Shown here piece by piece: positions 1,386-31,246 of a stretch of DNA of 32,263 nt. The translations under genes were made by a program, and so were the position numbers. Every line of letters starts with the position of its first letter. Position 1 is the first letter of the stretch. The stretch is taken from positions 1 to 32,263 of the forward strand of contig JAYTYJ010000008.1 in NCBI GenBank assembly GCA_043742445.1, read 5' to 3'. Source of the stretch: Candidatus Tayloriibacteriota bacterium (GTDB lineage Bacteria > Patescibacteriota > Minisyncoccia > Phycocordibacterales > PALSA-1337). The notes under the pieces are model-generated. The model searched no databases. It had not been told where the DNA came from and saw only the letters and a list, made by a program, of their open reading frames with translations.

Positions 1386-1832
1386 TCAACGATCTTTAAA
1401 TTCTCTTCGAATATCACGATTCACTTCTCGCGTCTTGATGTCCTCTCGTTTATCAAATTTCTTTTTCCCTCGGACAATAGCGATTTGAATCTTAATTTTC
1501 TTACCTTTACTATACATTGAAATAGGCACTATTGTCAAACCGCTTTTTTCTTCAAAAGAAGATAGTTTAGATATTTCTTCTTTATTTAAAAGAATTCTAC
1601 GATTTCTTTTTGGTTCAAAGTCGGCAGGGGTATTTTTAATTTGATAGGGTGGAATATTTGAAGCGATAATAAAAGCTTCGCCACCACGAATTGTGATATG
1701 CGATCCAAGAAGCGAACCTTGTCCATTTTTAATACTTTTTACTTCATGACCTAGAAGCTCAATTCCTGCTTCAAAGGTCTCGAGAATTTCATAATTAACT
1801 TTAGTTTTTTTATTGCGTATAAACTCAGTCAC
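1386..1832 (-). CDS. smpB: SsrA-binding protein SmpB
   Basis: 148 aa with typical SmpB sequence (NYEILETFEAGIELLGHEVKSIK ... GKKKFDKRE), adjacent to ssrA. GTG start, TGA stop. Confidence 0.95.
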   Translation of the reverse strand: MTEFIRNKKTKVNYEILETFEAGIELLGHEVKSIKNGQGSLLGSHITIRGGEAFIIASNIPPYQIKNTPADFEPKRNRRILLNKEEISKLSSFEEKSGLTIVPISMYSKGKKIKIQIAIVRGKKKFDKREDIKTREVNRDIRREFKDR

Positions 1833-1838
1833 AAAAGA

Positions 1839-1870
1839 ATCATAGCATTTTTTGTTATTTTAAGTATAAT
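1839..1870. promoter_or_regulatory. back-to-back divergent -10 boxes for smpB and ftsH
   Basis: Minus-strand TATGAT (rc of 1839-1844) is followed by 6 nt and then the smpB GTG. Plus-strand TATAAT (1865-1870) is followed by 6 nt and then the ftsH ATG at 1877. No Shine-Dalgarno sequence is present in the 44-bp intergenic region. Confidence 0.55.
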
Positions 1871-1876
1871 CAAGAC

Positions 1877-3775
1877 ATGGCTAAAAATGATAAAAAAGTA
1901 AATAAAAAACCAAGTCGTTTCGGTCTTTTAAACTCCATTTCGATAGTACTTGTGGCACTTTTACTTGTTTCAAGCATTTTTTCTTTTATTTCTGATCAAA
2001 ACGCGAATGTTCAGAATATTGCTCTTTCTGATCTTGTTCACGATGTTGGAATGGCTAAGGTATTAGAGATCAAAGTCCAAGGTGATGATCTTATAGCGAC
2101 ATATTCTGATAAGACAATTAAAAAAACTCAAAAAGAAGCTGATTCTTCTATTACGGAAACGTTCATTCGCTACGGTCTAACTCCTGAAAAATTGAACGCT
2201 GTAAAAATAAAAGTTGAAGGACCTAGCGGTTTTATTTTTTGGCTTGTTCAGTTGGCGCCATTCATTGTACCCATTATTTTCCTTGGCCTGCTTATATGGT
2301 TTTTAACAAGACAAGTGCGTGGAGCTGGCATGCAAGCTTTTTCTTTCGGCCAGTCAAAAGCGCGGATTACATTGCCTGATGATAAGAAGCAAAAGGTTAC
2401 TTTTAAAGATGTCGCTGGAGCTAAAGAAGCCAAGCAAGAACTTTTAGAAATTGTAGATTTCTTGAGAAATCCAAAGAAGTTTTTAGAAATTGGAGCTGTT
2501 ATTCCTAAGGGAATTTTACTTATGGGCGCTCCAGGAACTGGAAAGACTTTACTTGCCAGAGCTGTTGCAGGTGAGGCGGGTGTAGCTTTTTTCGCAATCT
2601 CAGGATCGGAATTCGTAGAGATGTTTGTTGGAGTTGGAGCATCTCGAGTTCGCGATCTTTTTAAAATGGCAAAAGAAAATTCACCGGCTATTATTTTTGT
2701 TGATGAAATCGATGCTGTCGGTCGTGTGAGAGGAACTGGAGTTGGCGGAGGAAATGATGAACGTGAACAGACTCTTAACCAGATTCTGGTGGAAATGGAT
2801 GGATTCGAGCCAAATGAAAAAGTAATCGTTATGGCGGCAACAAATCGGCCTGATGTTTTAGATCCTGCTCTATTAAGGCCGGGACGTTTTGATCGAAGAG
2901 TTACGATTGATTTGCCAGACCGAAATGATAGAGAAGATATTTTGAAGATTCATTCAGCAAAGAAGCCTTTTGCAGAGGATGTAGTTTTAAGGGTGATTGC
3001 TGAAAGAACTCCAGGTTTTTCTGGAGCCGATCTGTATTCTTTGATGAATGAAGGAGCTATTCTTGCTGCACGTGAAAATAGAACAAAAGTCTCTCAGTAT
3101 GACCTCATTCGTGCAATCGAGAAGGTGATGCTCGGACCCGAACGGAAAAGTCATTTGCTTTCAAAGAAAGAAAAAGAAATTACGGCGTATCATGAAGCAG
3201 GGCATGCACTTGTAGCCTCAGTTTTACCTTTTGCAGATCCTGTTCACAAGATATCGATAATTTCTCGAGGGAGAGCTGCTGGGTATACTCTGCACTTGCC
3301 ATTAGAGGACCGAAAGATGCAAAGTAAAAAAGAATTTTTAGATGATATAGCTGTGTCGCTTGGAGGATATGTTGTAGAAAAAATAATGTTCGATGACGTT
3401 ACAACTGGTCCATCGAATGATCTTCAGGTTTCTACAGCTCTAGCAAGAGATATGGTAACAAAATACGGTATGTCAGAGAAAATAGGAGTATTAGCTTTAG
3501 AAAGTGCTGGTGGGAGAGCTATGTTTGGAAAGGGGGTAGAAGAAAATAGTATGTCAGAAAAAATTAGTGCGGATGTTGATGGAGAGGTTGCAAGAATAAT
3601 GGATGAAGGATATAAGAAGGCTGAATTTATTGTTAAAACACATAAATCGGCGCTTGACGCTATAGCAAAAAGGTTAATTGAGGTAGAAAACATCGAAAGA
3701 GAAGAATATGAAGCAATCATTGTTGCACACGGTATTCAGCCAAAGAAAAAATTAGATATTGAACATCAAATATGA
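1877..3775 (+). CDS. ftsH: ATP-dependent zinc metalloprotease FtsH
   Basis: 632 aa with an N-terminal TM pair, AAA+ Walker A GAPGTGKT, Walker B IIFVDEID, an SRH region, and the zinc motif HEAGHA. Confidence 0.97.
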
Positions 3776-3806
3776 TATAAATTATGAGTGAATTGATTTC
3801 ATTCAT

Positions 3807-3880
3807 GCGCCTGTAGCTCAGTTGGTTAGAGCATCGAGCTTATACCTCGAGGGTCCCACGTTCGAATCGTGGCAGGCGCA
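3807..3880 (+). tRNA. tRNA-Ile, anticodon UAU
   Basis: Hand-folded cloverleaf: acceptor GCGCCTG/CAGGCGC, D arm GCTC..GAGC, anticodon arm TCGAG-CTTATAC-CTCGA, T arm CCACG-TTCGAAT-CGTGG, discriminator A. CCA is not encoded. Confidence 0.85.
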
Positions 3881-3936
3881 CAAATTTTAATTTGGAAGGA
3901 ATTATTAACCCAGAGAGGTAGAACATAAAGCGGCAC

Positions 3937-6114
3937 CTATTCCCAATGTGTAATAGCAGATTTCCTTTGTTCCAATTCTATTTTAATTTCAGAATATTTT
4001 TTTAGGTTTATATCAGTATCGATGATATTTTTTGCTTCTGTTCTAGCTGCTTCAACCATCTTTAAGTTTTGTAAGGCTTCCATTGCAATATCAGAGACGC
4101 CCCATTGTTTGGCTCCGGAAAGTTCTCCAGCCCCGCGGAATTTTAGATCGTACTCAGCAAGTTCGAAACCATTTTTTGCAGTCTGGAGAGCTTTGAGACG
4201 GGTGATTGTTTTTTCTGATTTAGTTTCGGCAAAGACATAACAATATGCTTGATTATTTGATCTTATAACACGACCACGAAGCTGGTGGAGCTGTGCAAGA
4301 CCAAATCTTTCAGCACCTTCAATTATGATACTGGTAGCGTTTGGAACATTTACCCCCACTTCAACAACAGATGTAGCACATAGAATATGGATTTTACCTG
4401 ATTTAAAATCAAGCATTACTCTATCTTTTTCTGATGGTTTCATTTTGCTGTGTAAAATACCTATCTCATATTCTGGGAAAACTTTTTCTTTTAGACGTTT
4501 TGATTCTTCTTTTACTGATTTTGCGAGAACAGCCATTTCTTTTTCTGGATCAGGTTCATTTATGCGGGGGCAAATGACATATGCTTGGCGGCCAGCTCTT
4601 AACTCTTCATGAATTTTTTCGTATACATTTTTTCGTTTATCGGGTGTCACGATTTCTGTAATTATTGACTTTCGTCCGTGAGGCATTTGATCAAGAATGG
4701 TAATGTCAAGATCGCCATAGATGGTGAGAGCAAGAGTGCGGGGAATAGGAGTCGCTGTCATAGATAGAAGGTGTGGTGCACGAGTCAATCCGTCTGCATC
4801 TTTTTGAACAAGAGAGGCTCTTTGTTTAAGTCCGAAACGATGCTGTTCATCGATGATGACGTAGGCTAGATTTTTAAATTTGACTGCTTTTTGAATTAGA
4901 GCGTGTGTACCGATAAGAATCGGGATTTCTCCATTCGCTACCCATTTTAAAAGCTGAACCCGAGAGATGTTAGTCCAACCTTTCTGATTTATTTTTGAGG
5001 GGAACTTTCTGCATCCACTTCCAGTAATCATTCCCACTTGAATTCCAAGATATGAAAAGTACTGAATAAAAGATTCAAAATGTTGCGTAGCTAGAATCTC
5101 AGTTGGGCACATATAGGCAACTTGGAGATGTCCGAACTTTCGATCTTTTGGTGTAGTTGTTACAACTGCATATGCCGTAGAGGCTGCGACAGCGGTCTTT
5201 CCAGAACCTACATCTCCTTCGAGTAGGCGAGACATAGCCTTACCTCCTTTAAAATCAGAAATGATAGCACGTATTGATTTCTGCTGAGCTTCGGTCGCTT
5301 GAAAAGGGAATCGTTTAATAAATTCTTGAAGGTTTTTCTCGGTAGGCTCTATAAGGAATGTTTCATTTTTCTCGTATTCTTTTCGTGCAATCTGCTTTTC
5401 GAGTTGGATAAAAAATATTTCTTCAAATGCAAAGCGCTTTCTGGCGGCTGTAGCATCCTGAGCTTTCATTGGGGTGTGTATCCAAATGAGAGCCGTCTTT
5501 AATCCTGGTAAATTGTACGTATCTAAAATATCTTTTGGGATCGGATCCTGTAGAGTTTCAAGAATATTATTTCGAAATATTTCGATTATTTTATGATACA
5601 TCCAATTTGAAGTGATACCGTGAGATTCTGGATATACTGGATATAACGTATGGGATTTTCCATCATCACCAAAAAGAGAATCACCAACTCCTGTTGGAAG
5701 TTTGTTAACGACTTCTATTTTAGGATTCGAAAAATAAAGTTCTTGGTTATTTTTCCTCTCTGAAATCTTTCCCTCGATACGGACGAGAGCTCCTTCTGGA
5801 GTCATTTTGGCTAAATATGGTTGATTGAACCAGACGCAATGGATCTTTCCACTTTCGTCTTCTACCCAGGCATCGGCCATAGTTACTTTTGTTTTAAATC
5901 CTTTACGTGCTTTGAGTCCTGATACTTTTCCAAAAATAACTGCCATATCACCTTTACCTAGCGAGGCAATATTCCTTGTTTCGGAGGTATCTCCGTATCG
6001 AGTAGGAAAATGATATAAAAGATCTCGGATAGTATTGATGCCAAGCTTTTTTAATGCCGCTTTTTGTGGGGGAATGAGGCGAGCATACTCAGATATGGGG
6101 GAAGTGTGGTGCAT
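3937..6114 (-). CDS. recG: ATP-dependent DNA helicase RecG
   Basis: 725 aa with an N-terminal wedge/OB region, helicase motif I GDVGSGKT, motif II DEQHRFG, and a C-terminal TRG-like region. TAG stop. Confidence 0.95.
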   Translation of the reverse strand: MHHTSPISEYARLIPPQKAALKKLGINTIRDLLYHFPTRYGDTSETRNIASLGKGDMAVIFGKVSGLKARKGFKTKVTMADAWVEDESGKIHCVWFNQPYLAKMTPEGALVRIEGKISERKNNQELYFSNPKIEVVNKLPTGVGDSLFGDDGKSHTLYPVYPESHGITSNWMYHKIIEIFRNNILETLQDPIPKDILDTYNLPGLKTALIWIHTPMKAQDATAARKRFAFEEIFFIQLEKQIARKEYEKNETFLIEPTEKNLQEFIKRFPFQATEAQQKSIRAIISDFKGGKAMSRLLEGDVGSGKTAVAASTAYAVVTTTPKDRKFGHLQVAYMCPTEILATQHFESFIQYFSYLGIQVGMITGSGCRKFPSKINQKGWTNISRVQLLKWVANGEIPILIGTHALIQKAVKFKNLAYVIIDEQHRFGLKQRASLVQKDADGLTRAPHLLSMTATPIPRTLALTIYGDLDITILDQMPHGRKSIITEIVTPDKRKNVYEKIHEELRAGRQAYVICPRINEPDPEKEMAVLAKSVKEESKRLKEKVFPEYEIGILHSKMKPSEKDRVMLDFKSGKIHILCATSVVEVGVNVPNATSIIIEGAERFGLAQLHQLRGRVIRSNNQAYCYVFAETKSEKTITRLKALQTAKNGFELAEYDLKFRGAGELSGAKQWGVSDIAMEALQNLKMVEAARTEAKNIIDTDINLKKYSEIKIELEQRKSAITHWE

Positions 6115-6120
6115 TATTGT

Positions 6121-6126
6121 ATTATA
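6121..6126 (-). promoter_or_regulatory. -10 box for recG in leaderless geometry
   Basis: The minus strand reads TATAAT-ACAATA-ATG, so the hexamer is exactly 6 nt before the recG start. Confidence 0.5.
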
Positions 6127-8295: not shown

Positions 8296-9007
8296 TAAGG
8301 CGATGACTTTTTTCTAGAAGTGGTAACCAGACAAATTTGTTTATAACAAAGATCATCGATAGGAAAATAATAACACCGAAGAGGGTGGTCGAAGAACTTG
8401 TTGAAAATGTATTAAAAAATGGGCCAAGTCCGCTATTCATCTGTAGTAAAAGTTCTGTAGCAATGAGCGCCTCCCATCCATCGCCAAGGCCTATGATAGC
8501 TCCAGTCACGATCCCTGGAGCAGTCACTGGTAAAAGAAAATAACGAATATAGTCCAGTCCTCCAATCCTGCTTATTTTTACGGCATCATGCCAGTTTTGG
8601 TCGACCTGTTTCAATGAGCTTACGATAGAAAAAATAATAGGCCATATAATGGTGATGATAAGGAATAAAATAATAGTTAATTCTGAAGTGCCGAGATAGT
8701 GAACTGCAATAGGGAGAATGGTGAACGTCGGTAAGCTTTGCATGACATCAAAAACCGCAAGTGAAGCATTTTCAGTTTTACCTCTAATAAGTAGCACGAC
8801 GAGAACCCATGCAATAATAGTCGCAAATATAAAAGCAACACCAAGACGTATTGTCGAAATTAAAATACTTTCAAGAGATAATATAAAAGATAGTTTTGTT
8901 ATTGCAGAAAAAATAATAAGTAAAATAAGTGGTAATAAAAGAATAAAGAATCCAACGAAAAGATGTTTGTGAGATCGATTGAGTGAGAAGTGATGATATG
9001 CACGCAT
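8285..9007 (-). CDS. ABC transporter permease
   Basis: 240 aa, polytopic and hydrophobic, with a BPD-type permease layout. Translationally coupled to the ATPase gene. No substrate-binding protein gene is adjacent. Confidence 0.8.
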   Translation of the reverse strand: MRAYHHFSLNRSHKHLFVGFFILLLPLILLIIFSAITKLSFILSLESILISTIRLGVAFIFATIIAWVLVVLLIRGKTENASLAVFDVMQSLPTFTILPIAVHYLGTSELTIILFLIITIIWPIIFSIVSSLKQVDQNWHDAVKISRIGGLDYIRYFLLPVTAPGIVTGAIIGLGDGWEALIATELLLQMNSGLGPFFNTFSTSSSTTLFGVIIFLSMIFVINKFVWLPLLEKSHRLIEQ

Positions 9008-9024
9008 CGTTTTATTTTAGTTGT

Positions 9025-9711
9025 TTAATTATACCATTCAATTTCTTTCTTACCCCATTTCTTCAGATAATCGTTTGTTTTACTAAATGGTTTTGATCCA
9101 AAGAATCCATCATAAGCCGAAAATGGGGAAGGGTGTGGTGATTCTATAATGAGGTGTCTCGATCGATCGATGGATGATCCTTTTTTCTTTGCATAATTTC
9201 CCCATAGAATAAAAACAATATGCTCACTCTTTTCAGAGAGGGTTCTAATGACTGCATCAGTAAACTGTTCCCAACCTCTACCTTGGTGAGAACCTGGTGA
9301 TGCAGCTTTTACTGTGAGAGTGGCATTTAAAAGTAAAACGCCTTGCTTCGCCCATTGGGAAAGGTCACCACTTTTTATAACTGGTTTTTTAAAATCAGCT
9401 TCGATTTCCTTAAAAATATTTCTAAGAGAGGGTGGAAGAGGAATATTTTCATTAACTGCAAAAGATAGCCCGTTTGCTTGATGTTTGCCATGATATGGAT
9501 CTTGCCCGAGAATCACAACTTTTACCTCATCAAAGTGACAAAGTTCAAATGCTCTGAAGATGTCTTTGGGAGGAGGATAGACAGTAGACTTCGCGCATTC
9601 CTTACGAACAAAATCAGTAAGCTCTTTGAAATAGGGTTTTCCAAATTCATCTTTCAAAACATTCTTCCAAGATTTTTCGATTTTGACTCCACGATCTTTT
9701 ACAATTTCCAT
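9025..9711 (-). CDS. ung: uracil-DNA glycosylase (family 1)
   Basis: Motifs VVILGQDPYHG and HPSPFSA, plus LLLNATLTV; 228 aa. Confidence 0.95.
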   Translation of the reverse strand: MEIVKDRGVKIEKSWKNVLKDEFGKPYFKELTDFVRKECAKSTVYPPPKDIFRAFELCHFDEVKVVILGQDPYHGKHQANGLSFAVNENIPLPPSLRNIFKEIEADFKKPVIKSGDLSQWAKQGVLLLNATLTVKAASPGSHQGRGWEQFTDAVIRTLSEKSEHIVFILWGNYAKKKGSSIDRSRHLIIESPHPSPFSAYDGFFGSKPFSKTNDYLKKWGKKEIEWYN

Positions 9712-9736
9712 AAAGTTCTCTATATCATCAGTTAAA

Positions 9737-10528
9737 TTATAACACGCTGTAATGTTTATTTTTTAAAATAATAAACCCTTCCTTTTGTAGATTAATCAAA
9801 TTGTCAGATATATCTTTCTCGAATATCTTGCGGAGTGAAGGTTCTGTCCCCGGTTTTTTCAAGAGTTCTCTCAAAATCATGGCACGTAACTCACGATTTG
9901 AACCTTTGAATTTCGATTGCTTTACGTGGTGCTTACTTTGTCGTGATGGATTTTTCTTAGTTTTTTTTAAAAAAGATCCATAATCCATTAGAGCGTAATA
10001 CCATTCTCGGGGATTATTTTTATCAAGAGTCTTTTCTATCAGAACTAAAAGATCTTTATCACGTACATCCCTTTTGTCTTTAAAAAAGAAATGTATAAAG
10101 ACGCTGCGAATGTTTGTTTCGATAAAAACAACTGGAATATTAAAAGCAAAAGCTAAAATAGAGCCAGCTGTGTTCGGACCGATACCTGGAAGATCTGCTA
10201 ATTTCTCGTAGTTTTTTGGAAGTCGACCTGTATATATGTCCTCGACAACCTTTGCTATCTTCTGGAGGCTGACTGCACGCCTATTATATCCAAGTCCTTG
10301 CCATTCCTTAAGAACTCTAGAAAGAGGGGCTTTCGTGAGAGATGTAAAATCTGGAAACTTTTTAATAAAACTTTCAAACTTCGGCGCGACCCGTGAAGCT
10401 TGAGTCTGCTGAAGCATGATTTCGGAAACCACGATATTGTACGGAGAAAAATTTTCTCGCCAAGGCATAGAACGAGCATTCTCTTTATAATAGTTCCAGA
10501 TTATTTTCTTGAAAGAGGAATGGTTCAT
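9737..10528 (-). CDS. HhH-GPD base-excision glycosylase, MutY-like, short form
   Basis: PWRENFSPYNIVVSEIMLQQTQASRV and LPGIGPNTAGSILAFAF (HhH) match the MutY/Nth N-terminal domain. The tracked ORF extends to 10555. The ATG at 10528-10526 forms an ATGA overlap with the mscL stop, so I prefer it as the start. Confidence 0.8.
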   Translation of the reverse strand: MNHSSFKKIIWNYYKENARSMPWRENFSPYNIVVSEIMLQQTQASRVAPKFESFIKKFPDFTSLTKAPLSRVLKEWQGLGYNRRAVSLQKIAKVVEDIYTGRLPKNYEKLADLPGIGPNTAGSILAFAFNIPVVFIETNIRSVFIHFFFKDKRDVRDKDLLVLIEKTLDKNNPREWYYALMDYGSFLKKTKKNPSRQSKHHVKQSKFKGSNRELRAMILRELLKKPGTEPSLRKIFEKDISDNLINLQKEGFIILKNKHYSVL

Positions 10529-11440: not shown

Positions 11441-11469
11441 TTGACTTTCGTGTTATGGTATGCTATACT
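11441..11469 (+). promoter_or_regulatory. near-consensus promoter, TTGACT-17 nt-TATACT
   Basis: TTGACT at 11441-11446 and TATACT at 11464-11469. The ATG at 11479 is 9 nt downstream. The upstream ATG at 11455 lies inside the promoter spacer, so it is unlikely to be the start. Confidence 0.55.
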
Positions 11470-11478
11470 CTATGGCAG

Positions 11479-11688
11479 ATGAACGCTTTACTATCTCAGC
11501 TCTTTGGCTTTGTTCTTGTTATTCTCATCATGTCCTTCGGAATGGGTATGATAGTAGGAGGGTCGGACAAGGGCAAAAAAATCGTCTCATGGGAGCTCAA
11601 GCAGCTTACCAAATTCGGGCGGTGGATCCTGAAGCAACTACTTCAACTCATCGCGGATGTGTGCAAATGGGCACACAAGAAACTGTAA
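11479..11688 (+). CDS. small hypothetical membrane protein (69 aa)
   Basis: One N-terminal hydrophobic helix (LFGFVLVILIMSFGMGMIVGG) followed by a basic amphipathic tail. It is bracketed by a strong promoter and a hairpin terminator. An alternative frame (11460-11837) is also open. Confidence 0.45.
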   Translation: MNALLSQLFGFVLVILIMSFGMGMIVGGSDKGKKIVSWELKQLTKFGRWILKQLLQLIADVCKWAHKKL

Positions 11689-11690
11689 CC

Positions 11691-13179: not shown

Positions 13180-13226
13180 AGTCAAAATCATTCTTGCATG
13201 AAATGAGTATTTAATCAAAACTGGAA

Positions 13227-15965: not shown

Positions 15966-15972
15966 GGATATG

Positions 15973-15978
15973 ATTATA
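15973..15978 (-). promoter_or_regulatory. -10 box for the FAD-oxidase operon in leaderless geometry
   Basis: The minus strand reads TATAAT-CATATCC-ATG, so the hexamer is 7 nt before the start. Confidence 0.5.
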
Positions 15979-16023
15979 GCAATATTTGTAAAAGCGACAT
16001 AATTTACGTATAGTAGTGTGATT

Positions 16024-16351: not shown

Positions 16352-16372
16352 TTTTAGTATAATTACAATCGT

Positions 16373-16924
16373 ATGGAAAATATGGATAAAAGTATCCCAT
16401 CACCGGAATCAAAAGAAAAAATAAAGTTTGTTCCCGTCAGAATTTTTTCCACGGGCGGAACAATAGATTCTTCTCCCGACTACGACCCAACTAAGAAAAG
16501 TGTTTTTCAAGGAACGTATCTTCCACAAATGTTTTCGCAAGCAAGGTTGCCTGAAGAAGCAATCATTGAACCGCTTATGCAAAAGGAATCCATGGATTTA
16601 ACTGCGGAGGACAGACAAGTAATGCTTGACCACTGCATTCAATCGTCCCAAGACAGAATATTGATTACACATGGGACGGACACGATTGCTGAAACTGCCA
16701 AATTTCTCGGTGAAAAAGGCGTTGGAAATAAGACCGTAGTGTTGGTAGGTTCATTTGTTCCTTTGTCGCAACCAAACTCTGATGCGCATTTCAATCTCGG
16801 ATATTCAATGGCGGCCGCACAATTACTTCCTGCCGGAGTGTGGGTTGCAGTAAATGGAGAAGTATTTGAATGGGACAATGTTCAAAAGAATAGAGATAAA
16901 ATGAGGTTTGAGCAGATAAAGTGA
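16373..16924 (+). CDS. L-asparaginase-family protein, N-terminal catalytic domain only
   Basis: STGGTIDS (catalytic Thr motif) and ITHGTDTIAETA (second Thr motif). At 183 aa it lacks the C-terminal domain of type I/II asparaginases. TATAAT at 16358-16363 lies 9 nt before the ATG. Confidence 0.8.
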   Translation: MENMDKSIPSPESKEKIKFVPVRIFSTGGTIDSSPDYDPTKKSVFQGTYLPQMFSQARLPEEAIIEPLMQKESMDLTAEDRQVMLDHCIQSSQDRILITHGTDTIAETAKFLGEKGVGNKTVVLVGSFVPLSQPNSDAHFNLGYSMAAAQLLPAGVWVAVNGEVFEWDNVQKNRDKMRFEQIK

Positions 16925-17187: not shown

Positions 17188-17217
17188 TTGGACATCCATC
17201 CGTAGGCAAGGTATACT
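17188..17217 (+). promoter_or_regulatory. promoter TTGGAC-18 nt-TATACT; contains copy 1 of a 21-bp repeat
   Basis: TATACT at 17212-17217 is 6 nt before the ATG at 17224. The -35 box and spacer are formed by TTGGACATCCATCCGTAGGCA (17188-17208). Confidence 0.55.
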
Positions 17218-17223
17218 TTTTGT

Positions 17224-18348
17224 ATGAGCATTAAAAATAAATTATATTTTGTAATCGTTTGTTTATTTGTTTGTGCAGTGCTGGTGGGTACTTTTGTTGT
17301 TTATAATAAATCAGCAATTGTTTCTTCTATCAACAATTCGATTGTTTCTGTAAATAATTTAGCGGACGCTGATAAAGCTGATCCAAATGATCTTAATTCA
17401 GCATACAAACAAGCTTCTCTCGAAGAATATCAGCCTGGTTCAAATGGTACCTTTGGAGTATCGTATATATCACTTCCAGGAAAGCCAGCTTTGCAGGCAC
17501 TTAGTAAGTGTACTCCATCCTACGGTATTACACCTGAAGGCATCAAGTTAGACGAGACCAAAGCTAAAACCCTTATCCCTATAATGGACCTGAACCAAAA
17601 AATAGCTATTGCTCAAGGTTCAGTTTCTTTTGCAGAAAGTAGAATATCTTCGCTTGAAAAAACTATAGAGGCGCTCAATAACGCCATACTTTACAGCTCT
17701 TTTTCTGGATGGCTTGTTCCAACTGGTGTTGTCGAACCAGTACCTTTTGATTCTTTATCTGGAATTCAGACGAAATGTGGCGATGCCCGATGGGGGAAAG
17801 ATCCGGTTATACTTATAGGAAACAATGTGTTGAAAAACTACTCAGGTCTTGTTGATGATCCTAAAGGAAAAAATAAGATCAAAGCCGCACTCGCACTCTG
17901 GAATAAATATTTGGAAAATAATGGTCTTAACCCTATTGATACAGCTAAAGCCTATTTTATGTCGGATGATTTTGACATTCTTGATCCTTCAGACAAAAAA
18001 AGTAATCCAGTTGGATTACCTATATCTATAGGTATATCTATAAGTTTCAATCATGACTGTCTTAAGATCCATGAGCCATCTTCATCAAAAGGCCATGAGG
18101 ATGAGGTTTGTTTCGAAAATGGTAAGAAGGTTGTGGAAAATATGATTGATAGTGTTAAGTCAGCTGTTCTCAAGAAAATAGCTTTCTATGAAGACCAAAA
18201 GAAAACTTTCGAAGATAAGGTAAAATCTCTTACTAAAGAAAGAGACCAACAGGCAGACAAATATCGAACAACGCTCTATCTTAAAGGTCCTTTTGATAAG
18301 TTACCCGCGACCCCATCAAAGCCGGGCAGTTACTCCGGATTGAGGTGA
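17224..18348 (+). CDS. hypothetical membrane-anchored secreted protein (374 aa)
   Basis: N-terminal signal anchor LYFVIVCLFVCAVLVGTFVVY. Four Cys residues in the ectodomain and a coiled-coil-like C-terminus. I recognise no family. Confidence 0.8.
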   Translation: MSIKNKLYFVIVCLFVCAVLVGTFVVYNKSAIVSSINNSIVSVNNLADADKADPNDLNSAYKQASLEEYQPGSNGTFGVSYISLPGKPALQALSKCTPSYGITPEGIKLDETKAKTLIPIMDLNQKIAIAQGSVSFAESRISSLEKTIEALNNAILYSSFSGWLVPTGVVEPVPFDSLSGIQTKCGDARWGKDPVILIGNNVLKNYSGLVDDPKGKNKIKAALALWNKYLENNGLNPIDTAKAYFMSDDFDILDPSDKKSNPVGLPISIGISISFNHDCLKIHEPSSSKGHEDEVCFENGKKVVENMIDSVKSAVLKKIAFYEDQKKTFEDKVKSLTKERDQQADKYRTTLYLKGPFDKLPATPSKPGSYSGLR

Positions 18349-18397: not shown

Positions 18398-18625
18398 GAA
18401 TTTTAGGGCAGAGACTTCTATTTGTATCCTTATTCAAAGATTATTTACTCACATTTATGGTATTATATGTCCATGGGAGACCTTAAATATCCGGGACATG
18501 TACAGAACCTCCCTGAGCTACCTTCTCAAAATACTGAACTACAGTAAGAGAATAAAAAATTCTGGGTCAGAATAATTTTTTCTCTGATTTTTCTTGTTTT
18601 TATTATTTTCCTTGTATGGCAATTT

Positions 18626-25100: not shown

Positions 25101-25884
25101 CTTCAGAAAAGGAAGTCCAGTGATCAAATGTTGCAACGACAAGCGGAGCAATCGGTTCAAGTGTTGCTGAACAAGAATTACCTTGAGCAAACGCGATATT
25201 TGGAGCAAAAATGGATTTCAAAGAATTTAAAATGAGTGGACTTGACGGTGCAACTGGCGCCGGAGTGGGCGCTGGTACTGACACTGGTTCGGGCGCAGGG
25301 ACTGGCGCCGATTCTATAATGGGTGCGGGTGGAGTCGGGGTTGTCGTTTCGGGCGTCGTAGGAGTTACGGTTGTTGAAGATGTATCGGGAGTGCTCACAG
25401 GCGGCACAATAGTATTTACAGGAACTTCTATGGTAGTCTGGGTTGCCTTAAAGACCACTGTTCCATCAACAACCTGAATCTTGGTCGGATCATAATGATA
25501 TGCGAGAGAATTATTGAAATCCCAGCTTGCAGTAGAAGCATAGCTTGCCCCCGGAAAAAGGGTCAGACCAAACAAAGCGATTGCTACCCAGAATACAAAA
25601 GCAAGCACCATTCCGCCGAGCACAGAGAGCGATACGATTCTGCGGAGGCGGTATGTTTTTATCGCGTTTTGGTCACCACCAGCGAAGAATTCCGGTTTGA
25701 TAAAGGCATATGCAGGAAGTGAGATGAAAAAGTTTGCAAGTTCGAGTAATAAAATAAAAAAGCCATAGAGAATTATCTTTGGCCCGTTGGTGTCTACTAG
25801 TTTTAATTTGTAAGAGTTGATAAATGCTGAAAAATGCAGCATGACATTCAGCCACTTTTCCTTCACCTCGTGATTTTTTTTCAT
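22177..25884 (-). CDS. giant surface protein (1235 aa) with Ig/FN3-like and LamG-like domains
   Basis: An N-terminal TM hairpin and a Pro/Thr/Ala-rich linker. A LamG-like stretch (HIVVLTYDGSNLKLYIDGS). An FN3-like stretch (WHWSPAGG..YIITYG..TGLTANTRYYAKITAYDDFGH). Several Ig-like repeats and a C-terminal TM helix with an RKRK tail. TATTTT lies 7 nt before the ATG. Confidence 0.9.
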   Translation of the reverse strand: MKKNHEVKEKWLNVMLHFSAFINSYKLKLVDTNGPKIILYGFFILLLELANFFISLPAYAFIKPEFFAGGDQNAIKTYRLRRIVSLSVLGGMVLAFVFWVAIALFGLTLFPGASYASTASWDFNNSLAYHYDPTKIQVVDGTVVFKATQTTIEVPVNTIVPPVSTPDTSSTTVTPTTPETTTPTPPAPIIESAPVPAPEPVSVPAPTPAPVAPSSPLILNSLKSIFAPNIAFAQGNSCSATLEPIAPLVVATFDHWTSFSEVANKNGGDIAYQLSTDSGITWQYFNGSAWATASINNYNTAHDINNHISSLPTSLSVGGVATLSFQARFTSDCAHDVTLLSLTADYAEHTTIASIMSPGNTNPIQTTTSEQSPSVIAVTDSIASITTNTTSSTSVEAPSIPTTDTNSIDVNQNTSLTTNTTVTTPAVVPIPFSVHTVIKTTGTPGHALYSVPGLFSLEEGPDNGLVVKVTNTSLEQTTLTTSGGASGNISVGDHIVVLTYDGSNLKLYIDGSVSATLNAPIVVAPPAQVSTSIGCVSAGVVLEALSLAQINANYIECGNNAPVINITNASQKHDDNFVDINYTVTDPENNFITLTKYEYSKTGAWNGEEQSMTETNIDTDSSGTGGLAGSISGTPHTFVWDVKADLPHTSSNVYVRLKGTDGLLGSMNETFGPFRIDTKAPVVTSVEGSQQSAADTVHITYKVADASAPVHISFELSSDNGLTWIVPTTGRAGDLGEVTNADGVTTHTISWNAGTNLPVFEGNVKARITATDTFGNTSVTQNDSLSDPIAVDTRIPFGLANFEGLSSNENDILWHWSPAGGELHFSRYIITYGTNLAEVTVGTGASVYTWGPLRDSDMSIVGTDRTIVTGLTANTRYYAKITAYDDFGHEMTSPVAFFNTKTHVTTVNNSVPISTSEEITLTLPDTSTLPTTAPVGGFKIKINGGNVTTDSRDVTLTLTAGDDTALMAISNHADLGDAALVAYTSTSPWNLCGGLATCENGTHTVYVKYYTSFGVGDNASKVSDSIALLLPVLPVVPSDTTVTVNASPVSSSASSGGGSVSVEGGRGGSKEVIVTTVVPITATVAFTNTTVKNLSEARESAVIVKPVISAVNKSVAGGSITFTGKGIPSSKVALFIHSDQVVVYTTDVDSKGEWNYKHDQQNVELSPGEHSVFAVTYDPGSKVKSKPSLVETFEVKQNMAAVVLSYVDLPTTLLTVLACIFGALYIGTRKRKTVQ

Positions 25885-26017
25885 ACTTTTTAAAATAAAA
25901 ATTAGTTCACGCGGGTTCTCGCATCGTCAAAGATCGAATGAAAATAATTTTACTAAATGTAAGTTAATAATGACCTAAGTATAAAACGTTTAGACCATAA
26001 ATGATAGTGTTAGTGTT

Positions 26018-26045
26018 TTGTTGTTGTCTTCATGTCTGTTATACT
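26018..26045 (+). promoter_or_regulatory. promoter candidate TTGTTG-16 nt-TATACT in leaderless geometry
   Basis: TATACT at 26040-26045 is 6 nt before the ATG at 26052. Confidence 0.45.
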
Positions 26046-26051
26046 TATCAC

Positions 26052-26423
26052 ATGAAAAAAATCATCGTGGTGGAAGATGAGCACATTTTACAAAAAGCAT
26101 TGTCGATTGAATTACTCGGTGCAGGTTTTGAAGTGATGAGCGCGTTTGACGGTGTTGCTGGTCTCGTACTTATCCAAAAGGAAATTCCCGCTCTCGTACT
26201 TCTTGATCTCACAATGCCAAAACTAAATGGTTTTGATGTATTAAAAGAGTTACAAGCAAAACCAGAAACAAAATCAATTCCTGTTATAATCCTCTCTAAT
26301 TTAGGACAGGACGAGGACAAAGAAAAAGCTATGTCCCTCGGTGCCACTGATTATTTTATAAAGTCCAACACAGACCTATCTCTCCTTACGCAAAAAATAG
26401 AAAAGATGCTTCAAAATAAATAA
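26052..26423 (+). CDS. single-domain response regulator (CheY-like receiver)
   Basis: MKKIIVVEDE, phospho-acceptor context LVLLDLTMPKLNG, IILSNLG, ATDYFIK. No output domain. The start at 26052 is preferred over the tracked 26001 because of the -10 box and typical receiver N-terminus. Confidence 0.9.
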   Translation: MKKIIVVEDEHILQKALSIELLGAGFEVMSAFDGVAGLVLIQKEIPALVLLDLTMPKLNGFDVLKELQAKPETKSIPVIILSNLGQDEDKEKAMSLGATDYFIKSNTDLSLLTQKIEKMLQNK

Positions 26424-28818: not shown

Positions 28819-29421
28819 CTAATGTGCCACCGTTAGAGCTATTACATCCACGAAACCCGCTCTTAGTAAAGTCTCCCGAGCTTCTTTCAAAGTGCTTCCA
28901 GTTGTGCTTACATCATCTATGATAAGAATTCTTTCTGAGCCTTTAGACGTTCTGGTGACTTCAAATATATTCTTAGTATTTTCTATTCTCTCATTTCTAT
29001 TTTTAAATGTTTGTTTGTCTATGTCTTTAGATCTGATAAGAAGTGTATAATCTTTTGAAATTTTTGGATTAATTTTACATATTTCGTCAATTATTAATTC
29101 ACACTGATTGTATCCTCGCTCTTTTTTTCTTTTATTTGAAATGGGAATAGGAATTAAAAGAAAATCAGCCGTCACTTTTTTCGATAGAGCCAAAGCCGCA
29201 ATTGCCACTGCATGTTTATTTTTCTTATATTTAATCTGCAAGATCAATTCTCTGGTGAGAGGATATTTATATGAAAAGATCGATAATATAAAAGGAAATT
29301 CGGTTTTTATTGAGCGAGGAGTGGTTTTTAGAAAATTTTCAGGAGAAATAGTTCGAAGTTCTAATTCTTCTGCGTTTGGTGGAAATAAGAAGTCTATTAT
29401 ATAGTGGAAAAAATGCTTCAT
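28819..29421 (-). CDS. comFC: ComF family phosphoribosyltransferase-fold protein
   Basis: ERGYNQCELI and ILIIDDVSTTGSTLKEA (PRT motif). The tracked ORF reaches 29502 but would overlap the pilM start by 41 nt. The ATG at 29421 (MKHFFHYIIDFLFPP) has TATAAG exactly 6 nt upstream. Confidence 0.8.
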   Translation of the reverse strand: MKHFFHYIIDFLFPPNAEELELRTISPENFLKTTPRSIKTEFPFILSIFSYKYPLTRELILQIKYKKNKHAVAIAALALSKKVTADFLLIPIPISNKRKKERGYNQCELIIDEICKINPKISKDYTLLIRSKDIDKQTFKNRNERIENTKNIFEVTRTSKGSERILIIDDVSTTGSTLKEARETLLRAGFVDVIALTVAH

Positions 29422-29427
29422 TATTTG

Positions 29428-29455
29428 CTTATATGTTATTGCACTATGATATAAT
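29428..29455. promoter_or_regulatory. back-to-back divergent -10 boxes for comFC and pilM
   Basis: Minus-strand TATAAG (rc of 29428-29433) is followed by 6 nt and then an ATG. Plus-strand TATAAT (29450-29455) is followed by 6 nt and then the ATG at 29462. Confidence 0.55.
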
Positions 29456-29461
29456 AATCTC

Positions 29462-30592
29462 ATGGATTTCTTTAATAAGATATTTTCTTCTCTTTTTTCC
29501 AAAAAATCTCAAAGTGTTTTGGGTATTGATATTGGTTCTTCAGCTATAAAAGTAGTGCAAATAAAGAAAAAAAGAGGGAGAGCGGTACTGGAAACCTATG
29601 GTGAGCTTGCTTTAGGGCCATATGCAGGTGTAGAAGTTGGTCGATCTACAAGCCTTACAAAGGAGAAGACTATCGAAGCTCTAAAAGATATTCTCAGAGA
29701 GGCAAAGACGACGACAGTCACCTGTGGAGTGGCGCTACCACTTTCTTCTAGTCTTATTACTTTTATCACTATTCCTCACGTCCCAGATAAACAGCTGGCC
29801 GAAGTCATTTCTCTAGAGGCTAGAAAGTATATCCCAGTTCCAATGAACGAAGTAATGTTTGATTATTCAATTATTCCACGGGAAGAAGCTTTTTCTACAG
29901 ATGATAGAGATGTTGCCAGCAAGCAGGTTCTAGTAAATGAAAAACAACCCCTGGATGTTTTAGTGGTGGCTATTCATAATGAATACATAAATAGTTATCA
30001 AGCTATTTCAGCAGGACTTTCTTTGCAACCTTCTTTTTACGAGATAGAACTTTTCTGTTCTATTCGTGCTGTCATCGAACAGGGAATACAAGCGGTAATG
30101 ATCATAGACATGGGAGCACAAGCGACCAAGCTTTATATAGTAGAGAGAGGTCTTCTTCGTGCTTCTCATATTATAAATAGAGGATCACAGGATATCACCT
30201 TAGCTATATCAAAATCACTGAGTCTAACAGTCAACGAAGCAGAAAATATCAAGAGGACTTTTGGTCTGAAGGGTGGTCCTGAATACAAAGAACTTACTGA
30301 AATCATAACTGTAAACTTAGATTATATTTTTTACGAAGCAAATGCAGCACTTTTTAAGTATCAAAAGAAGTATATGAAAAATATTAGTAAGGTTATTTTG
30401 ACAGGCGGTGGCGTTCTTCTAAAAGGATTTACTGATTTAGCAAAAGTTAGTTTCCAAACTGAAGTCATTTATGCAAATCCATTTGCAAAACTAGAAACTC
30501 CTGCTTTTCTCAATGATAAATTCTCAGAAGCTGGTCCAGAGTTTGCAGTCGCCATCGGCTGTGCATTACGTCGATTGTCTGAAATTGATTAA
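29462..30592 (+). CDS. pilM: type IV pilus assembly ATPase-like protein PilM
   Basis: 376 aa with an actin-like fold signature (VLGIDIGSSAIKVVQI, IIDMGAQATKLYIV, ILTGGGVLLKG). Confidence 0.9.
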   Translation: MDFFNKIFSSLFSKKSQSVLGIDIGSSAIKVVQIKKKRGRAVLETYGELALGPYAGVEVGRSTSLTKEKTIEALKDILREAKTTTVTCGVALPLSSSLITFITIPHVPDKQLAEVISLEARKYIPVPMNEVMFDYSIIPREEAFSTDDRDVASKQVLVNEKQPLDVLVVAIHNEYINSYQAISAGLSLQPSFYEIELFCSIRAVIEQGIQAVMIIDMGAQATKLYIVERGLLRASHIINRGSQDITLAISKSLSLTVNEAENIKRTFGLKGGPEYKELTEIITVNLDYIFYEANAALFKYQKKYMKNISKVILTGGGVLLKGFTDLAKVSFQTEVIYANPFAKLETPAFLNDKFSEAGPEFAVAIGCALRRLSEID

Positions 30593-30610
30593 TCAACTAT
30601 AATTAGTGTA

Positions 30611-31246
30611 ATGGATACAAAATTCCAAACATCGTTCATTCCCAAAAAACCGATAGTCATGGATCAAAGGGTAGTAAAGCATAGTGGAGGCACCAGCGTC
30701 CTCATGTTTATAGCTGTAATTATTTTTATAGTCTCTCTTGCTGGTGCCGGTTTCACTTTTGTCTGGAAGGATATACTTTTAAGACAGCAAGATACATACG
30801 TATCTGATTTAAAAAAAGCTCAGAATAGGTTTGATATAGGACTTATTGAAAAATTAAAAAAAGCTAATACAAAGATTGATCTAGGAGCCAAATTATTGAA
30901 AAAACATCTAGCCATTTCAGAAGTTTTTTCGATTATCAGTTCCTTAACTGCTGATAGTGTTCGTTTTACAGATTTTCAATTTGTGGCACCCACAATCGAT
31001 GGTGATGAGGCAAAGATTACCATGAAAGGCTTTGGAAATAGTTATCCTTCCGTCGCTTGGCAGAGTGATGTTTTCGGTCAATCTTCAAAATATGGAAAAA
31101 ATAAGATCTTGAAGAATCTAGTATTGTCAGATCCAGTTGTAGATCTAAATGGAAATGTAGTCTTTACTTTTACTGCAACTTTAAATCCTGATGATATTTC
31201 ATATGAAAAATCATTAGCTTCAGGATTAAATAATCCAACCCAATAA
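30611..31246 (+). CDS. pilN: PilN-like pilus assembly protein
   Basis: A single N-terminal TM helix after a short cytoplasmic tail, followed by a coiled coil. Positioned directly after pilM. Confidence 0.65.
   Translation: MDTKFQTSFIPKKPIVMDQRVVKHSGGTSVLMFIAVIIFIVSLAGAGFTFVWKDILLRQQDTYVSDLKKAQNRFDIGLIEKLKKANTKIDLGAKLLKKHLAISEVFSIISSLTADSVRFTDFQFVAPTIDGDEAKITMKGFGNSYPSVAWQSDVFGQSSKYGKNKILKNLVLSDPVVDLNGNVVFTFTATLNPDDISYEKSLASGLNNPTQ

What the first reader, a model, noticed from the sequence alone, without database searches (positions are those of the whole stretch)
1830..30613. A -10-like hexamer sits 6-7 nt upstream of the start codon of almost every first-in-unit gene, implying pervasive leaderless mRNAs
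All of the following were read directly from the sequence.
- smpB: TATGAT-N6-GTG
- ftsH: TATAAT-N6-ATG
- recG: TATAAT-N6-ATG
- ABC permease: TAAAAT-N6-ATG
- FAD oxidase: TATAAT-N7-ATG
- ORF 17224: TATACT-N6-ATG
- ATG 18473: TATTAT-N6-ATG
- giant surface protein: TATTTT-N7-ATG
- response regulator: TATACT-N6-ATG
- comFC internal ATG: TATAAG-N6-ATG
- pilM: TATAAT-N6-ATG
- pilN: TATAAT-N7-ATG
- 11479 and 16373: N9

No GGAGG-type Shine-Dalgarno sequence is seen at these starts. Transcription normally starts about 7 nt after the -10 hexamer, so these mRNAs would begin at or within a few nt of the start codon.

Two divergent pairs (smpB/ftsH with 44 bp between starts, comFC/pilM with 40 bp) place both -10 boxes back to back. 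Each -35 region then lies inside the opposing gene.

The GC-richer, putatively foreign genes (6249, 11985, 16205) lack this geometry.

The pattern also resolves several start codons (26052, 29421, 11479, 18473).
Basis: partly seen in the sequence, partly recalled or inferred. Interest (0 to 1): 0.7.

Follow-up and report, generated by a model that had tools for sequence, protein, structure and literature searches.

The report
Leaderless promoters at Parcubacteria gene starts
In this contig from an uncultivated Parcubacteria (CPR) bacterium and in about 80 relatives, the promoter -10 box sits exactly where transcription would begin at the start codon, so many mRNAs probably have no leader; this mode is known from Actinobacteria and Deinococcus, and I found no report of it for this group.

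Summary

**In the window:** TATAAT lies 6-7 nt before 5 of 30 naive long-ORF starts, against 3 of 1073 other ATGs (p = 6e-7).

**In 80 related Parcubacteria loci (1.26 Mb):**
- TATAAT spikes at N6, at 33 per 1000 starts against about 1.
- The hexamer carries an extended -10 (TRTGn) and a weak -35 TTG at 17 bp.
- The same box precedes tRNA genes.
- It is conserved at orthologous smpB (59/71), recG (38/52) and ftsH starts.
- All excess TGnTANNNT lies at N6-13.
- The codon at N6 is ATG or GTG, almost never TTG.

This is the signature of sigma-70 extended -10 promoters firing at the start codon, which gives leaderless mRNAs. Genes at most 5 nt behind the previous stop lack the box and are presumably translationally coupled. 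Genes 6-30 nt behind often have their own box.

- Only about 10 of 16 units have a strong box.
- Three listed boxes are weak.
- The -35 positions overlap the opposing -10 box, not the opposing gene.
- ATG 18473 is cut off from its ORF by an in-frame TAA.

No TSS data exist. This is a new member of a known kind.

The parts
1830..1847 (-). smpB leaderless promoter: TGcTATGAT (1839-1847), 6-nt spacer, GTG start (1830-1832). smpB is followed 13 nt later by tmRNA.
   Evidence: PWM p = 0.011. 59 of 71 smpB orthologues have TANNNT at N6-9 before the homology-projected start.
1865..1879 (+). ftsH leaderless promoter: TATAAT (1865-1870), N6, ATG 1877. It lies back to back with the smpB promoter, with 44 bp between the two starts.
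   Evidence: 49 of 75 ftsH orthologues have a box at N5-9.
6112..6126 (-). recG leaderless promoter: TATAAT (6121-6126), N6, ATG (6112-6114).
   Evidence: PWM p = 0.004. 38 of 52 recG orthologues have a box at N6-9.
11441..11481 (+). Full promoter TTGACT-17-TGcTATACT, N9, ATG 11479. It opens a 69-aa membrane-protein-like ORF (11479-11688). The overlapping 125-aa ORF in another frame looks spurious.
   Evidence: (p = 0.0009).
15963..15981 (-). FAD-linked oxidase: TGcTATAAT (15973-15981), N7, ATG (15963-15965).
   Evidence: (p = 0.005). The L004 orthologue has TGaTATAAT at N6.
16358..16375 (+). Asparaginase-domain gene: TATAAT, N9, ATG 16373. This gives a leader of 0-3 nt.
   Evidence: (p = 0.011).
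17212..17226 (+). Unknown 374-aa gene: TATACT, N6, ATG 17224. A TGGACA lies 17 bp upstream.
   Evidence: (p = 0.008).
18458..18547 (+). TGgTATTAT, N6, ATG 18473. The ORF is stopped by an in-frame TAA (18545-18547). The frame continues into a TM anchor and the 505-aa Cys-rich protein.
   Evidence: (p = 0.002).
26037..26054 (+). Response regulator: TGtTATACT, N6, ATG 26052. The public gene call uses 26001 instead.
   Evidence: (p = 0.007). Orthologues start with MKK at the position of 26052. The Pfam receiver domain starts 3 residues after 26052.
29447..29464 (+). pilM: TGaTATAAT, N6, ATG 29462.
   Evidence: (p = 0.003). 5 of 7 orthologues are boxed.
30598..30613 (+). pilN internal promoter: TATAAT, N7, ATG 30611, only 18 nt after the pilM stop.
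   Evidence: (p = 0.015). Orthologues in L004, L022 and L015 have a box at N6-8, and L028 has one at N12.
29419..29433 (-). comFC: weak box TATAAG (lacks the final T), N6, ATG 29421. The start itself is supported.
   Evidence: p = 0.10. The L004 comFC starts at the homologous position with TAAAAT at N7. The public gene call is also 29421.
9005..9036 (-). ABC permease: weak TAAAAT at N6. A better TGgTATAAT lies at N20, which would give a leader of about 13 nt without an SD.
   Evidence: (p = 0.05).
25882..25897 (-). Giant surface protein: TATTTT at N7. Not distinguishable from chance.
   Evidence: (p = 0.21).
9709..9744 (-). UDG-family gene: TGtTATAAT at N24, giving a short SD-less leader. The leader begins with a 2-codon ATG-ATA-TAG.
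   Evidence: The mini-ORF arrangement is not general.
13180..13198 (-). Promoter of tRNA-Ser(GCT): TGcAAGAAT, 10 nt before the mature 5' end (13179).
   Evidence: L004 has TGTGtAAGAAT at the same distance.
16009..16023 (+). Promoter of tRNA-Ser(ACT): TATAGT, 9 nt before the mature 5' end (16024).
31244..31830 (+). Coupled junctions without a box: pilN/pilO TAAtATG (31244-31250) and pilO/next gene TAAaATG (31824-31830). Other junctions of this type are 27869-27873 (TAATG), 8283-8287 (TAAaATG, minus strand) and 10525-10528 (ATGA, minus strand).
   Evidence: In the clade, genes at most 5 nt behind the previous stop carry the box at only the background rate of 5-9%.

Best explanation
The hexamers are sigma-70-type -10 elements, about half of them with a TGn/TRTGn extension and with little or no -35. 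They sit so that RNA polymerase starts at the A (or G) of the start codon, or within about 3 nt of it. The resulting mRNAs have no 5' leader and no Shine-Dalgarno sequence, so the ribosome with initiator tRNA must recognise the 5'-terminal AUG or GUG directly.

This is a property of the lineage, a Parcubacteria/Paceibacteria clade near 'Ca. Taylorbacteria', and not of this locus. Genes within about 5 nt of the preceding stop codon lack the box and are presumably translated by termination-reinitiation. Genes only 6-30 nt downstream often have their own leaderless promoter inside the upstream gene, as pilN does. A remaining third of genes in the window (6249, 11985, 27479, HK, UDG and others) have neither box nor SD and must use another route, probably A-rich unstructured leaders.

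**Shown:** the positional coupling, the promoter features, the conservation and the start-codon bias.
**Inferred:** the actual 5' ends and the initiation mechanism.
For: **In the window.**
- TATAAT at N6/7 occurs at 5 of 30 blind starts against 3 of 1073 other ATGs.
- Eleven starts have PWM p <= 0.02.
- No SD was found in 26 uncoupled starts.

**In the clade (80 loci, 1.26 Mb, GC 30-60%).**
- TATAAT at N6 occurs at 33 per 1000 starts, against about 1 at other spacings and 0.3-0.7 at other ATGs. Same-composition control hexamers are flat.
- The logo shows T-5, R-4, T-3, G-2 and a TTG at the 17-bp -35 register. Boxes ahead of internal genes show the same features.
- Of 157 tRNA/tmRNA genes, 34 have TANANT at N8-12 before the mature end, against 1-2 per position elsewhere.
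- At orthologous starts projected by homology, smpB has the box in 59/71, recG in 38/52 and ftsH in 49/75. The hexamer sequence varies but its position is kept.
- TGnTANNNT distance to the next start: N6 94, N7 35, N8 21, N9 24, N10-13 30. From N14 to N200 it equals the reverse-complement control.
- Without any start calling, the codon at N6 after TGnTANNNT is ATG 125 times (94 open for at least 100 codons), GTG 27 times (14 open) and TTG 31 times (1 open). This is as expected if +1 must be a purine.

**Literature.**
- The same signature defines GeneMarkS-2 'group C' genomes, where dRNA-seq confirmed leaderless transcripts (PMC6028130).
- Part of Parcubacteria lacks the anti-SD (PMC9297842; PMC10783764).
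Against: - No 5'-end data exist for this organism or for any close relative.
- N8-N12 cases (asparaginase, 11479 and many orthologues) may carry 1-5 nt leaders rather than none.
- Some relatives show genuine SD-like motifs: L004, L006 and L039, of which L004 is close. The clade is therefore mixed and its anti-SD may be intact. The 16S 3' end could not be examined because no rRNA lies in the window or the loci.
- Reduced 5' RNA structure and a pyrimidine at -1 are not specific to boxed genes.
Confidence: 0.85

Rival explanations
1. The AT-rich box acts in the mRNA as a Shine-Dalgarno-independent ribosome-binding signal. It would pair with an altered 16S 3' tail or bind S1, on transcripts that start further upstream.
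For: - A spacing of 6-9 nt to the start codon is also typical of ribosome-binding sites.
- The box occurs before internal genes only 6-30 nt behind the previous stop.
- The anti-SD is reported lost in part of Parcubacteria.
- The 16S 3' end of this lineage could not be inspected.
Against: - The box carries the TRTGn extension and a -35 TTG at 17 bp, which are DNA-recognition features. They are also present at internal genes.
- The same box precedes tRNA genes, which are not translated.
- There is no excess of promoter-like boxes further upstream that could supply the leadered transcripts.
- TTG is excluded at N6 while GTG is accepted, which fits a purine transcription start.
Confidence: 0.05
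2. The boxes are promoters, but transcripts generally keep a short leader of a few nt to about 10 nt. On this view initiation is 'short-leadered' rather than strictly leaderless.
For: There is a tail of spacings at N8-N13. Orthologues of one gene vary between N6 and N11.
Against: The mode is sharply at N6 (94 of 205 TGn boxes at N6-13), which is the canonical -10-to-+1 distance. ATG and GTG are selected exactly there. Leaders of 5 nt or less are functionally treated as leaderless in the literature (PMC10783764).
Confidence: 0.08
3. The pattern is a compositional or gene-calling artefact. AT-rich, stop-codon-rich upstream regions would produce TANNNT by chance, or starts were chosen to fit the box.
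For: Intergenic DNA is AT-rich. Three listed boxes are within chance.
Against: - With blind start calls, control hexamers of identical composition show no peak.
- The reverse-complement motif control is flat.
- The signal persists in relatives with 52-60% GC, at 34% against a 5% control.
- Homology-projected starts give the same result.
- TAA within TATAAT is out of frame at N6.
Confidence: 0.02

Closest known systems
Leaderless-transcript-rich bacteria (GeneMarkS-2 'group C': Actinobacteria such as Mycobacterium, Streptomyces and Corynebacterium; Deinococcus-Thermus)
   Same: - A Pribnow-type TANNNT box lies about 10 nt before the start codon of first genes in operons.
- These genes have no SD.
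- The 5'-terminal start codon is AUG or GUG.
- Other genes in the clade, at least in some relatives, have an SD (PMC6028130).
   Different: - This is a different phylum (Patescibacteria/CPR, Parcubacteria), with low-GC genomes.
- The promoters are of the TRTGn extended -10 type with almost no -35.
- All detectable excess of the promoter motif lies at N6-13.
- Internal genes 6-30 nt behind a stop frequently have their own box.
- This contig shows no SD at all.
Extended -10 (TGn / 'TRTG -16 region') sigma-70 promoters of Gram-positive bacteria and E. coli
   Same: The motif TRTGnTAnAAT is present, and the -35 is dispensable or degenerate. What is known about such promoters is recalled from general knowledge.
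   Different: Here the promoter is fused to the start codon. Two such promoters fit back to back in 21-49 bp between divergent genes.
Leaderless-dominated archaea (Haloferax, Halobacterium, Sulfolobus; GeneMarkS-2 'group D')
   Same: A high share of transcription units is leaderless, and SD has little role (PMC6028130).
   Different: Archaeal promoters have a TATA/BRE about 26 nt upstream and use the archaeal initiation machinery. Here the promoter is a bacterial -10 at N6.
Translational coupling by termination-reinitiation at overlapping or abutting stop/start codons
   Same: Junctions of the ATGA, TAATG and TAAnATG types occur at pilN/pilO, pilO/next gene, DUF2177/DUF1295, ABC permease/ATPase and MscL/HhH-GPD. 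These genes have neither box nor SD.
   Different: This is only inferred from geometry.

Membership tests
Bacterial leaderless-transcription genome (GeneMarkS-2 group C) | A -10 (Pribnow) motif is localised about 10 nt upstream of start codons of first genes in operons, above a composition-matched null. | tested here: met
   a sharp N6 peak in the window and in 80 related loci, with flat controls.
Bacterial leaderless-transcription genome (GeneMarkS-2 group C) | No Shine-Dalgarno motif is present at those starts. | tested here: met
   0 of 26 uncoupled starts in the window have GGAG, GAGG or AGGA at -16..-5.
Bacterial leaderless-transcription genome (GeneMarkS-2 group C) | The remaining genes (internal or leadered) use an RBS/SD, giving a dual start model. 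| tested here: inconclusive
   No SD was found in the window. SD-like motifs are clear in relatives L004, L006 and L039 and are enriched about 3-fold among unboxed genes of the pooled loci.
Leaderless mRNA | The mapped 5' end is at the start codon, or the 5' UTR is about 5 nt or less. | not testable with these tools
   No transcriptome or 5'-end data are available. The feature is inferred from the -10-to-ATG distance only.
Leaderless mRNA | The 5'-terminal start codon is AUG (or GUG) and +1 is a purine. | tested here: met
   at N6 after TGnTANNNT, ATG occurs 125 times (94 opening long ORFs), GTG 27 times (14) and TTG 31 times (1).
Sigma-70 extended -10 promoter | TG lies one base upstream of the -10 hexamer (TGnTAnnnT), with the -35 weak or dispensable. 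| tested here: met
   G-2 at 0.51-0.57 and T-3 at 0.49-0.58 against 0.26-0.27 background. In the window this holds for smpB, FAD oxidase, 11479, 18473, RR and pilM. The two-hexamer scan is not enriched.
Sigma-70 extended -10 promoter | The same element drives non-coding RNA genes. | tested here: met
   a TANANT peak lies 8-12 nt before mature tRNA 5' ends (34 of 157). In the window the sites are 13190-13198 (minus strand) and 16009-16014 (plus strand).
SD-independent RNA-level ribosome-binding signal | The motif acts in the mRNA independently of promoter features and is complementary to rRNA or bound by S1. | tested here: not met
   Promoter-specific flanks (TRTG, -35 TTG) and occurrence at tRNA genes argue against it. 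rRNA complementarity could not be tested, because no 16S is present.
Anti-SD-less Parcubacteria (Tsurumaki 2022; PMC10783764 class iv) | The 16S rRNA 3' end lacks CCUCC. | not testable with these tools
   No rRNA gene is in the window, which is a whole 32-kb contig, or in the 80 loci.

The most novel reading that the evidence does not exclude
In this Parcubacteria lineage essentially every recognisable promoter is fused to a start codon. Cistrons would then be expressed either from their own leaderless promoter, even when only 6-30 nt behind the previous gene, or by stop-start reinitiation. Shine-Dalgarno-led initiation would be largely or wholly abandoned, matching the reported anti-SD loss and reduced ribosomes of the group. 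That would make it the first bacterial clade with near-obligate leaderless gene expression, comparable to haloarchaea.
Probability: 0.3. Interest if true: 0.75.

Novelty: new member of a known kind. Interest (0 to 1): 0.6.

Why it matters
**Biology.** Leaderless initiation is the one mode of translation initiation shared by all three domains and is often regarded as ancestral. Showing that it dominates in a large, uncultivated, deep-branching radiation with pared-down ribosomes would link two earlier observations about Parcubacteria that have lacked a functional explanation. These are the missing anti-SD and the missing bS21 and uL1 (PMC9297842).

**Gene calling in CPR genomes.** The public call for the response regulator here starts 17 codons too early. 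A 69-aa ORF with a near-consensus promoter is not called at all.

**Use in experiments.** The pattern gives a compact, portable promoter design of about 15 bp (TRTGnTATAAT-N6-ATG) for the emerging genetics of Patescibacteria. It also makes a prediction that existing groundwater metatranscriptomes could test directly.

Tried and rejected
- **16S anti-SD.** No rRNA gene is in the window (Rfam) or in the 80 loci. The window is a complete contig. Exact-protein look-ups of the source contig failed. The supplement of PMC9297842 is not held.
- **Classical -35/-10 two-hexamer scan.** It is not enriched over shuffles (60 vs 51 +/- 6.6). It flags only the 11479 and 17224 promoters, so the -35 contributes little.
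- **Leaderless mini-uORF plus reinitiation.** This was tested as a general route for leadered genes, prompted by the UDG arrangement TGtTATAAT-N7-ATG-ATA-TAG. It was rejected: boxes 11-150 nt upstream of genes show no ATG enrichment at N6/7 (2 and 0 of 215).
- **Low 5' RNA structure as a leaderless-specific feature.** The first 30 nt are less structured in boxed and unboxed genes alike (p = 0.52 for the difference).
- **Pyrimidine at -1.** It is present at about 70% of all starts, so it is not specific.
- **The 125-aa ORF 11460-11837 and the 87-aa ORF 16968-17231.** Both were rejected as genes on low coding score and sequence appearance.
- **Pfam on SD-bearing genes of L004 and L039.** This was uninformative.
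- **Literature.** Searches for leaderless with Patescibacteria, CPR, Saccharibacteria or Parcubacteria, and for SD with Patescibacteria or Parcubacteria, found no report of this pattern.

Full report
**What the window is.**
The 32,263-nt window is a complete public contig. Its GC content is about 39%.

It encodes the following:
- tmRNA, smpB, ftsH, tRNA-Ile(TAT) and recG
- an ABC transporter, two base-excision glycosylases, MscL and a PLP enzyme
- a FAD-linked oxidase, a two-component system and a 1235-aa surface protein
- comFC and pilM, pilN and pilO

FtsH is 64-87% identical to FtsH of 80 genomes labelled Ca. Taylorbacteria, Paceibacterota, Parcubacteria, Kaiserbacteria, Nomurabacteria and Adlerbacteria. 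A homologue of another window protein is annotated as Ca. Taylorbacteria. The organism is therefore a Parcubacteria (CPR/Patescibacteria) bacterium.

**Checking the observation.**

Starts were then called blindly as the first ATG of any ORF of at least 100 codons.
- TATAAT lies at N6/7 before 5 of 30 such starts, against 3 of 1073 other ATGs (p = 5.6e-7).
- TANNNT lies there before 8/30, against 42/1073 (p = 2.8e-5).

A PWM trained only on relatives gives empirical p <= 0.02 for these starts:
- smpB, ftsH and recG
- the 11479 ORF, FAD oxidase and asparaginase
- 17224, 18473 and RR 26052
- pilM and pilN

The boxes listed for the ABC permease (TAAAAT, p 0.05), comFC (TATAAG, p 0.10) and the giant protein (TATTTT, p 0.21) are within chance. 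No SD-like tetramer lies at -16..-5 of any of 26 uncoupled starts.

About 10 of 16 protein-coding transcription units carry a strong box. Three units carry a weak box, and three (6249, 11985, 27479) carry none. 'Almost every' is therefore too strong, but the core observation stands.

**Is it a property of the lineage?**
The same analysis was run on the 80 loci (1.26 Mb, GC 30-60%).
- TATAAT at N6 occurs at 33 per 1000 blind starts. The figures are 9, 11 and 5 at N7-9, about 1 elsewhere, and 0.3-0.7 at other ATGs.
- Seven control hexamers of the same composition are flat, apart from TAATAT, itself a TANNNT, which rises a little at N6 (6 per 1000).
- The signal holds in every GC stratum. In genomes with 52-60% GC it is 34% against a 5% control.

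Homology-projected starts do not depend on the box, and they give the same answer.
- smpB has TANNNT at N6-9 in 59 of 71 orthologues.
- recG has it in 38 of 52.
- ftsH, with naive starts, has it in 49 of 75.

The hexamer sequence drifts (TATAAT, TACAAT, TAGAAT, TAAAAT, TATACT) while its position is kept. This points to functional constraint and not to inherited sequence.

**Promoter or ribosome signal?**
Five results point to a promoter.
1. **Logo.** Aligned on the hexamer, the logo shows T-5, R-4, T-3, G-2. This is the TRTGn extended -10, at 0.5-0.6 against 0.22-0.27 for TANNNT inside genes. It also shows a weak TTG exactly where a -35 with a 17-bp spacer would begin.
2. **tRNA genes.** Of 157 tRNA/tmRNA genes, 34 have TANANT 8-12 nt before the mature 5' end, against 1-2 per position elsewhere. 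In the window these are TGcAAGAAT before tRNA-Ser(GCT) and TATAGT before tRNA-Ser(ACT). A box that serves untranslated genes is a transcription signal.
3. **Distance profile.** TGnTANNNT counted against distance to the next gene start gives 94, 35, 21 and 24 at N6-9, and 30 at N10-13. From N14 to N200 it equals the reverse-complement control. Practically all detectable promoter excess is fused to start codons.
4. **Codon at N6.** With no gene calls at all, the codon at N6 after TGnTANNNT is as follows:
   - ATG 125 times, 94 of them opening at least 100 codons
   - GTG 27 times, 14 of them open
   - TTG 31 times, 1 of them open

   This fits a purine +1 and 5'-terminal AUG or GUG recognition.
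5. **Spacing.** N6 is the canonical distance from the -10 hexamer to +1.

**Operon organisation.**
Among same-strand neighbours, genes at most 5 nt behind the previous stop carry the box at the background rate of 5-9%. Genes 6-15 nt behind carry it at 34% (50% for N6-9), as often as divergent first genes do. Those internal boxes have the same TRTG and -35 features.

In the window, pilN (18 nt behind pilM) has TATAAT at N7, and three of four pilN orthologues have a box at N6-8. Five junctions have neither box nor SD:
- pilO, TAAtATG
- the gene after pilO, TAAaATG
- DUF1295, TAATG
- the ABC ATPase, TAAaATG
- HhH-GPD, ATGA

Several genes fit neither class.
- **Gaps of 7-48 nt:** unk271, unk261, MscL, unk365 and HK.
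- **Short SD-less leaders:** UDG with TGtTATAAT at N24, and the permease with TGgTATAAT at N20.

A third, SD-independent leadered route must therefore exist.

**Start codons.**
- **26052** is supported. Orthologues begin MKK at that position, and the receiver domain begins three residues later. The public call uses 26001.
- **29421** is supported by the L004 orthologue and by the public call.
- **11479** opens a 69-aa ORF that looks like a membrane protein, behind TTGACT-17-TGcTATACT. The overlapping 125-aa ORF looks spurious.
- **18473** has a strong box, but an in-frame TAA follows at 18545-18547. Beyond the TAA, and before any start codon, the frame encodes a TM anchor that aligns with the N-terminal anchor of homologues. 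The gene is probably interrupted, or the base is wrong.

**Corrections to the geometry.**
With a 17-bp spacer the -35 position of ftsH is 1842-1847, which overlaps smpB's TGcTATGAT (1839-1847). That of pilM is 29427-29432, which overlaps comFC's box (29428-29433). In both cases it falls on the opposing promoter and not inside the opposing gene.

In the clade, pairs with boxes on both sides occur with as little as 21-25 bp between the starts. This fits promoters that need only about 15 bp.

**Shine-Dalgarno status.**
The window has no SD. Relatives L004 (close), L006 and L039 have clear AGGAG-type motifs before some genes, and SD tetramers are about 3-fold enriched among unboxed genes of the pooled loci. 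The clade is therefore mixed, like GeneMarkS-2 group C genomes.

The literature reports that about half of Parcubacteria lack the anti-SD (PMC9297842), and that Campbellbacteria and Wolfebacteria are 'SD-scarce' without CCUCC (PMC10783764). Whether this organism belongs to that subgroup could not be tested, because no 16S is available.

**Comparison and novelty.**
The signature is the one that defines bacterial leaderless 'group C' genomes. Those were validated by dRNA-seq in Mycobacterium and Deinococcus (PMC6028130).

Six literature searches found no paper linking leaderless expression, or SD use, to this pattern in CPR, Patescibacteria, Parcubacteria or Saccharibacteria.

I file it as a new member of a known kind, with three distinguishing traits:
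- TRTGn extended -10 promoters with almost no -35
- no detectable excess of leadered promoters
- frequent separate leaderless promoters for internal genes

**Verdict.**
- **Observation:** confirmed, with the corrections above.
- **Interpretation:** supported in silico, and unverified experimentally.
- **Confidence in the leaderless mechanism:** 0.85.
- **Interest:** 0.6.

Noticed in passing
window 18473-20176: The ORF behind the strong leaderless promoter at 18458-18466 is broken by a single in-frame TAA (18545-18547). The frame then encodes KKFWVRIIFSLIFLVFIIFLVWQF with no start codon before TTG 18626. That segment aligns with the N-terminal membrane anchor of homologues. The cause could be a nonsense mutation, a base error or readthrough. 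The public call starts at 18659 and omits the anchor.
   Followed up: partly
window 16024-16111; L002 14871-14960; L004 17246-17335: A tRNA-Ser with anticodon ACT (A at the wobble position) scores 56 bits against Rfam tRNA. It is conserved in two relatives and has its own TATAGT box 9 nt upstream. It exists alongside a normal tRNA-Ser(GCT). A34 outside tRNA-Arg is unusual in bacteria.
   Followed up: partly
window 3807-3881; also L001-L004 and L030: tRNA-Ile with anticodon TAT lies directly after ftsH and behind a hairpin, and is conserved in all close relatives. This suggests AUA is read by a UAU anticodon rather than a lysidine-modified CAU.
   Followed up: no
window 954-1832 (minus strand): The smpB stop lies only 13 nt before the tmRNA 5' end, so tmRNA is probably co-transcribed from the leaderless smpB promoter and then processed. 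The predicted tag peptides are long (23-29 aa, ...SPYFG...FAYATV) and conserved among relatives.
   Followed up: partly
80 loci plus window (157 tRNA/tmRNA genes): tRNA genes carry their -10 box only 8-12 nt before the mature 5' end. Precursor 5' leaders for RNase P would then be only about 1-5 nt long.
   Followed up: partly
window 26001-26423 and 11479-11688: Public gene calls on this contig give the response regulator 17 extra N-terminal residues (MIVLVFCCCLHVCYTYH). They also miss a 69-aa membrane-protein-like ORF that has a near-consensus promoter.
   Followed up: yes
window 9709-9744 (minus strand): Upstream of the UDG-family gene, TGtTATAAT is followed at N7 by a two-codon ORF (ATG ATA TAG). 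The gene's ATG lies 8 nt after that ORF. A similar ATG-TGA follows a TATAAT on the minus strand at 18467. The arrangement is not enriched across the clade.
   Followed up: yes
L004, L006 and L039 (for example L004 3391, L039 4911, 12676 and 17480): Some relatives, including the close one L004, have clear AGGAG-type Shine-Dalgarno motifs before a subset of genes, next to leaderless-type genes. SD use therefore varies within the clade.
   Followed up: partly
window 1-950: No convincing gene lies to the left of tmRNA. Three TATAAT boxes on the minus strand (92, 145, 158) point towards the contig end. Terminator-like hairpins lie at 589-614 and 915-954.
   Followed up: no
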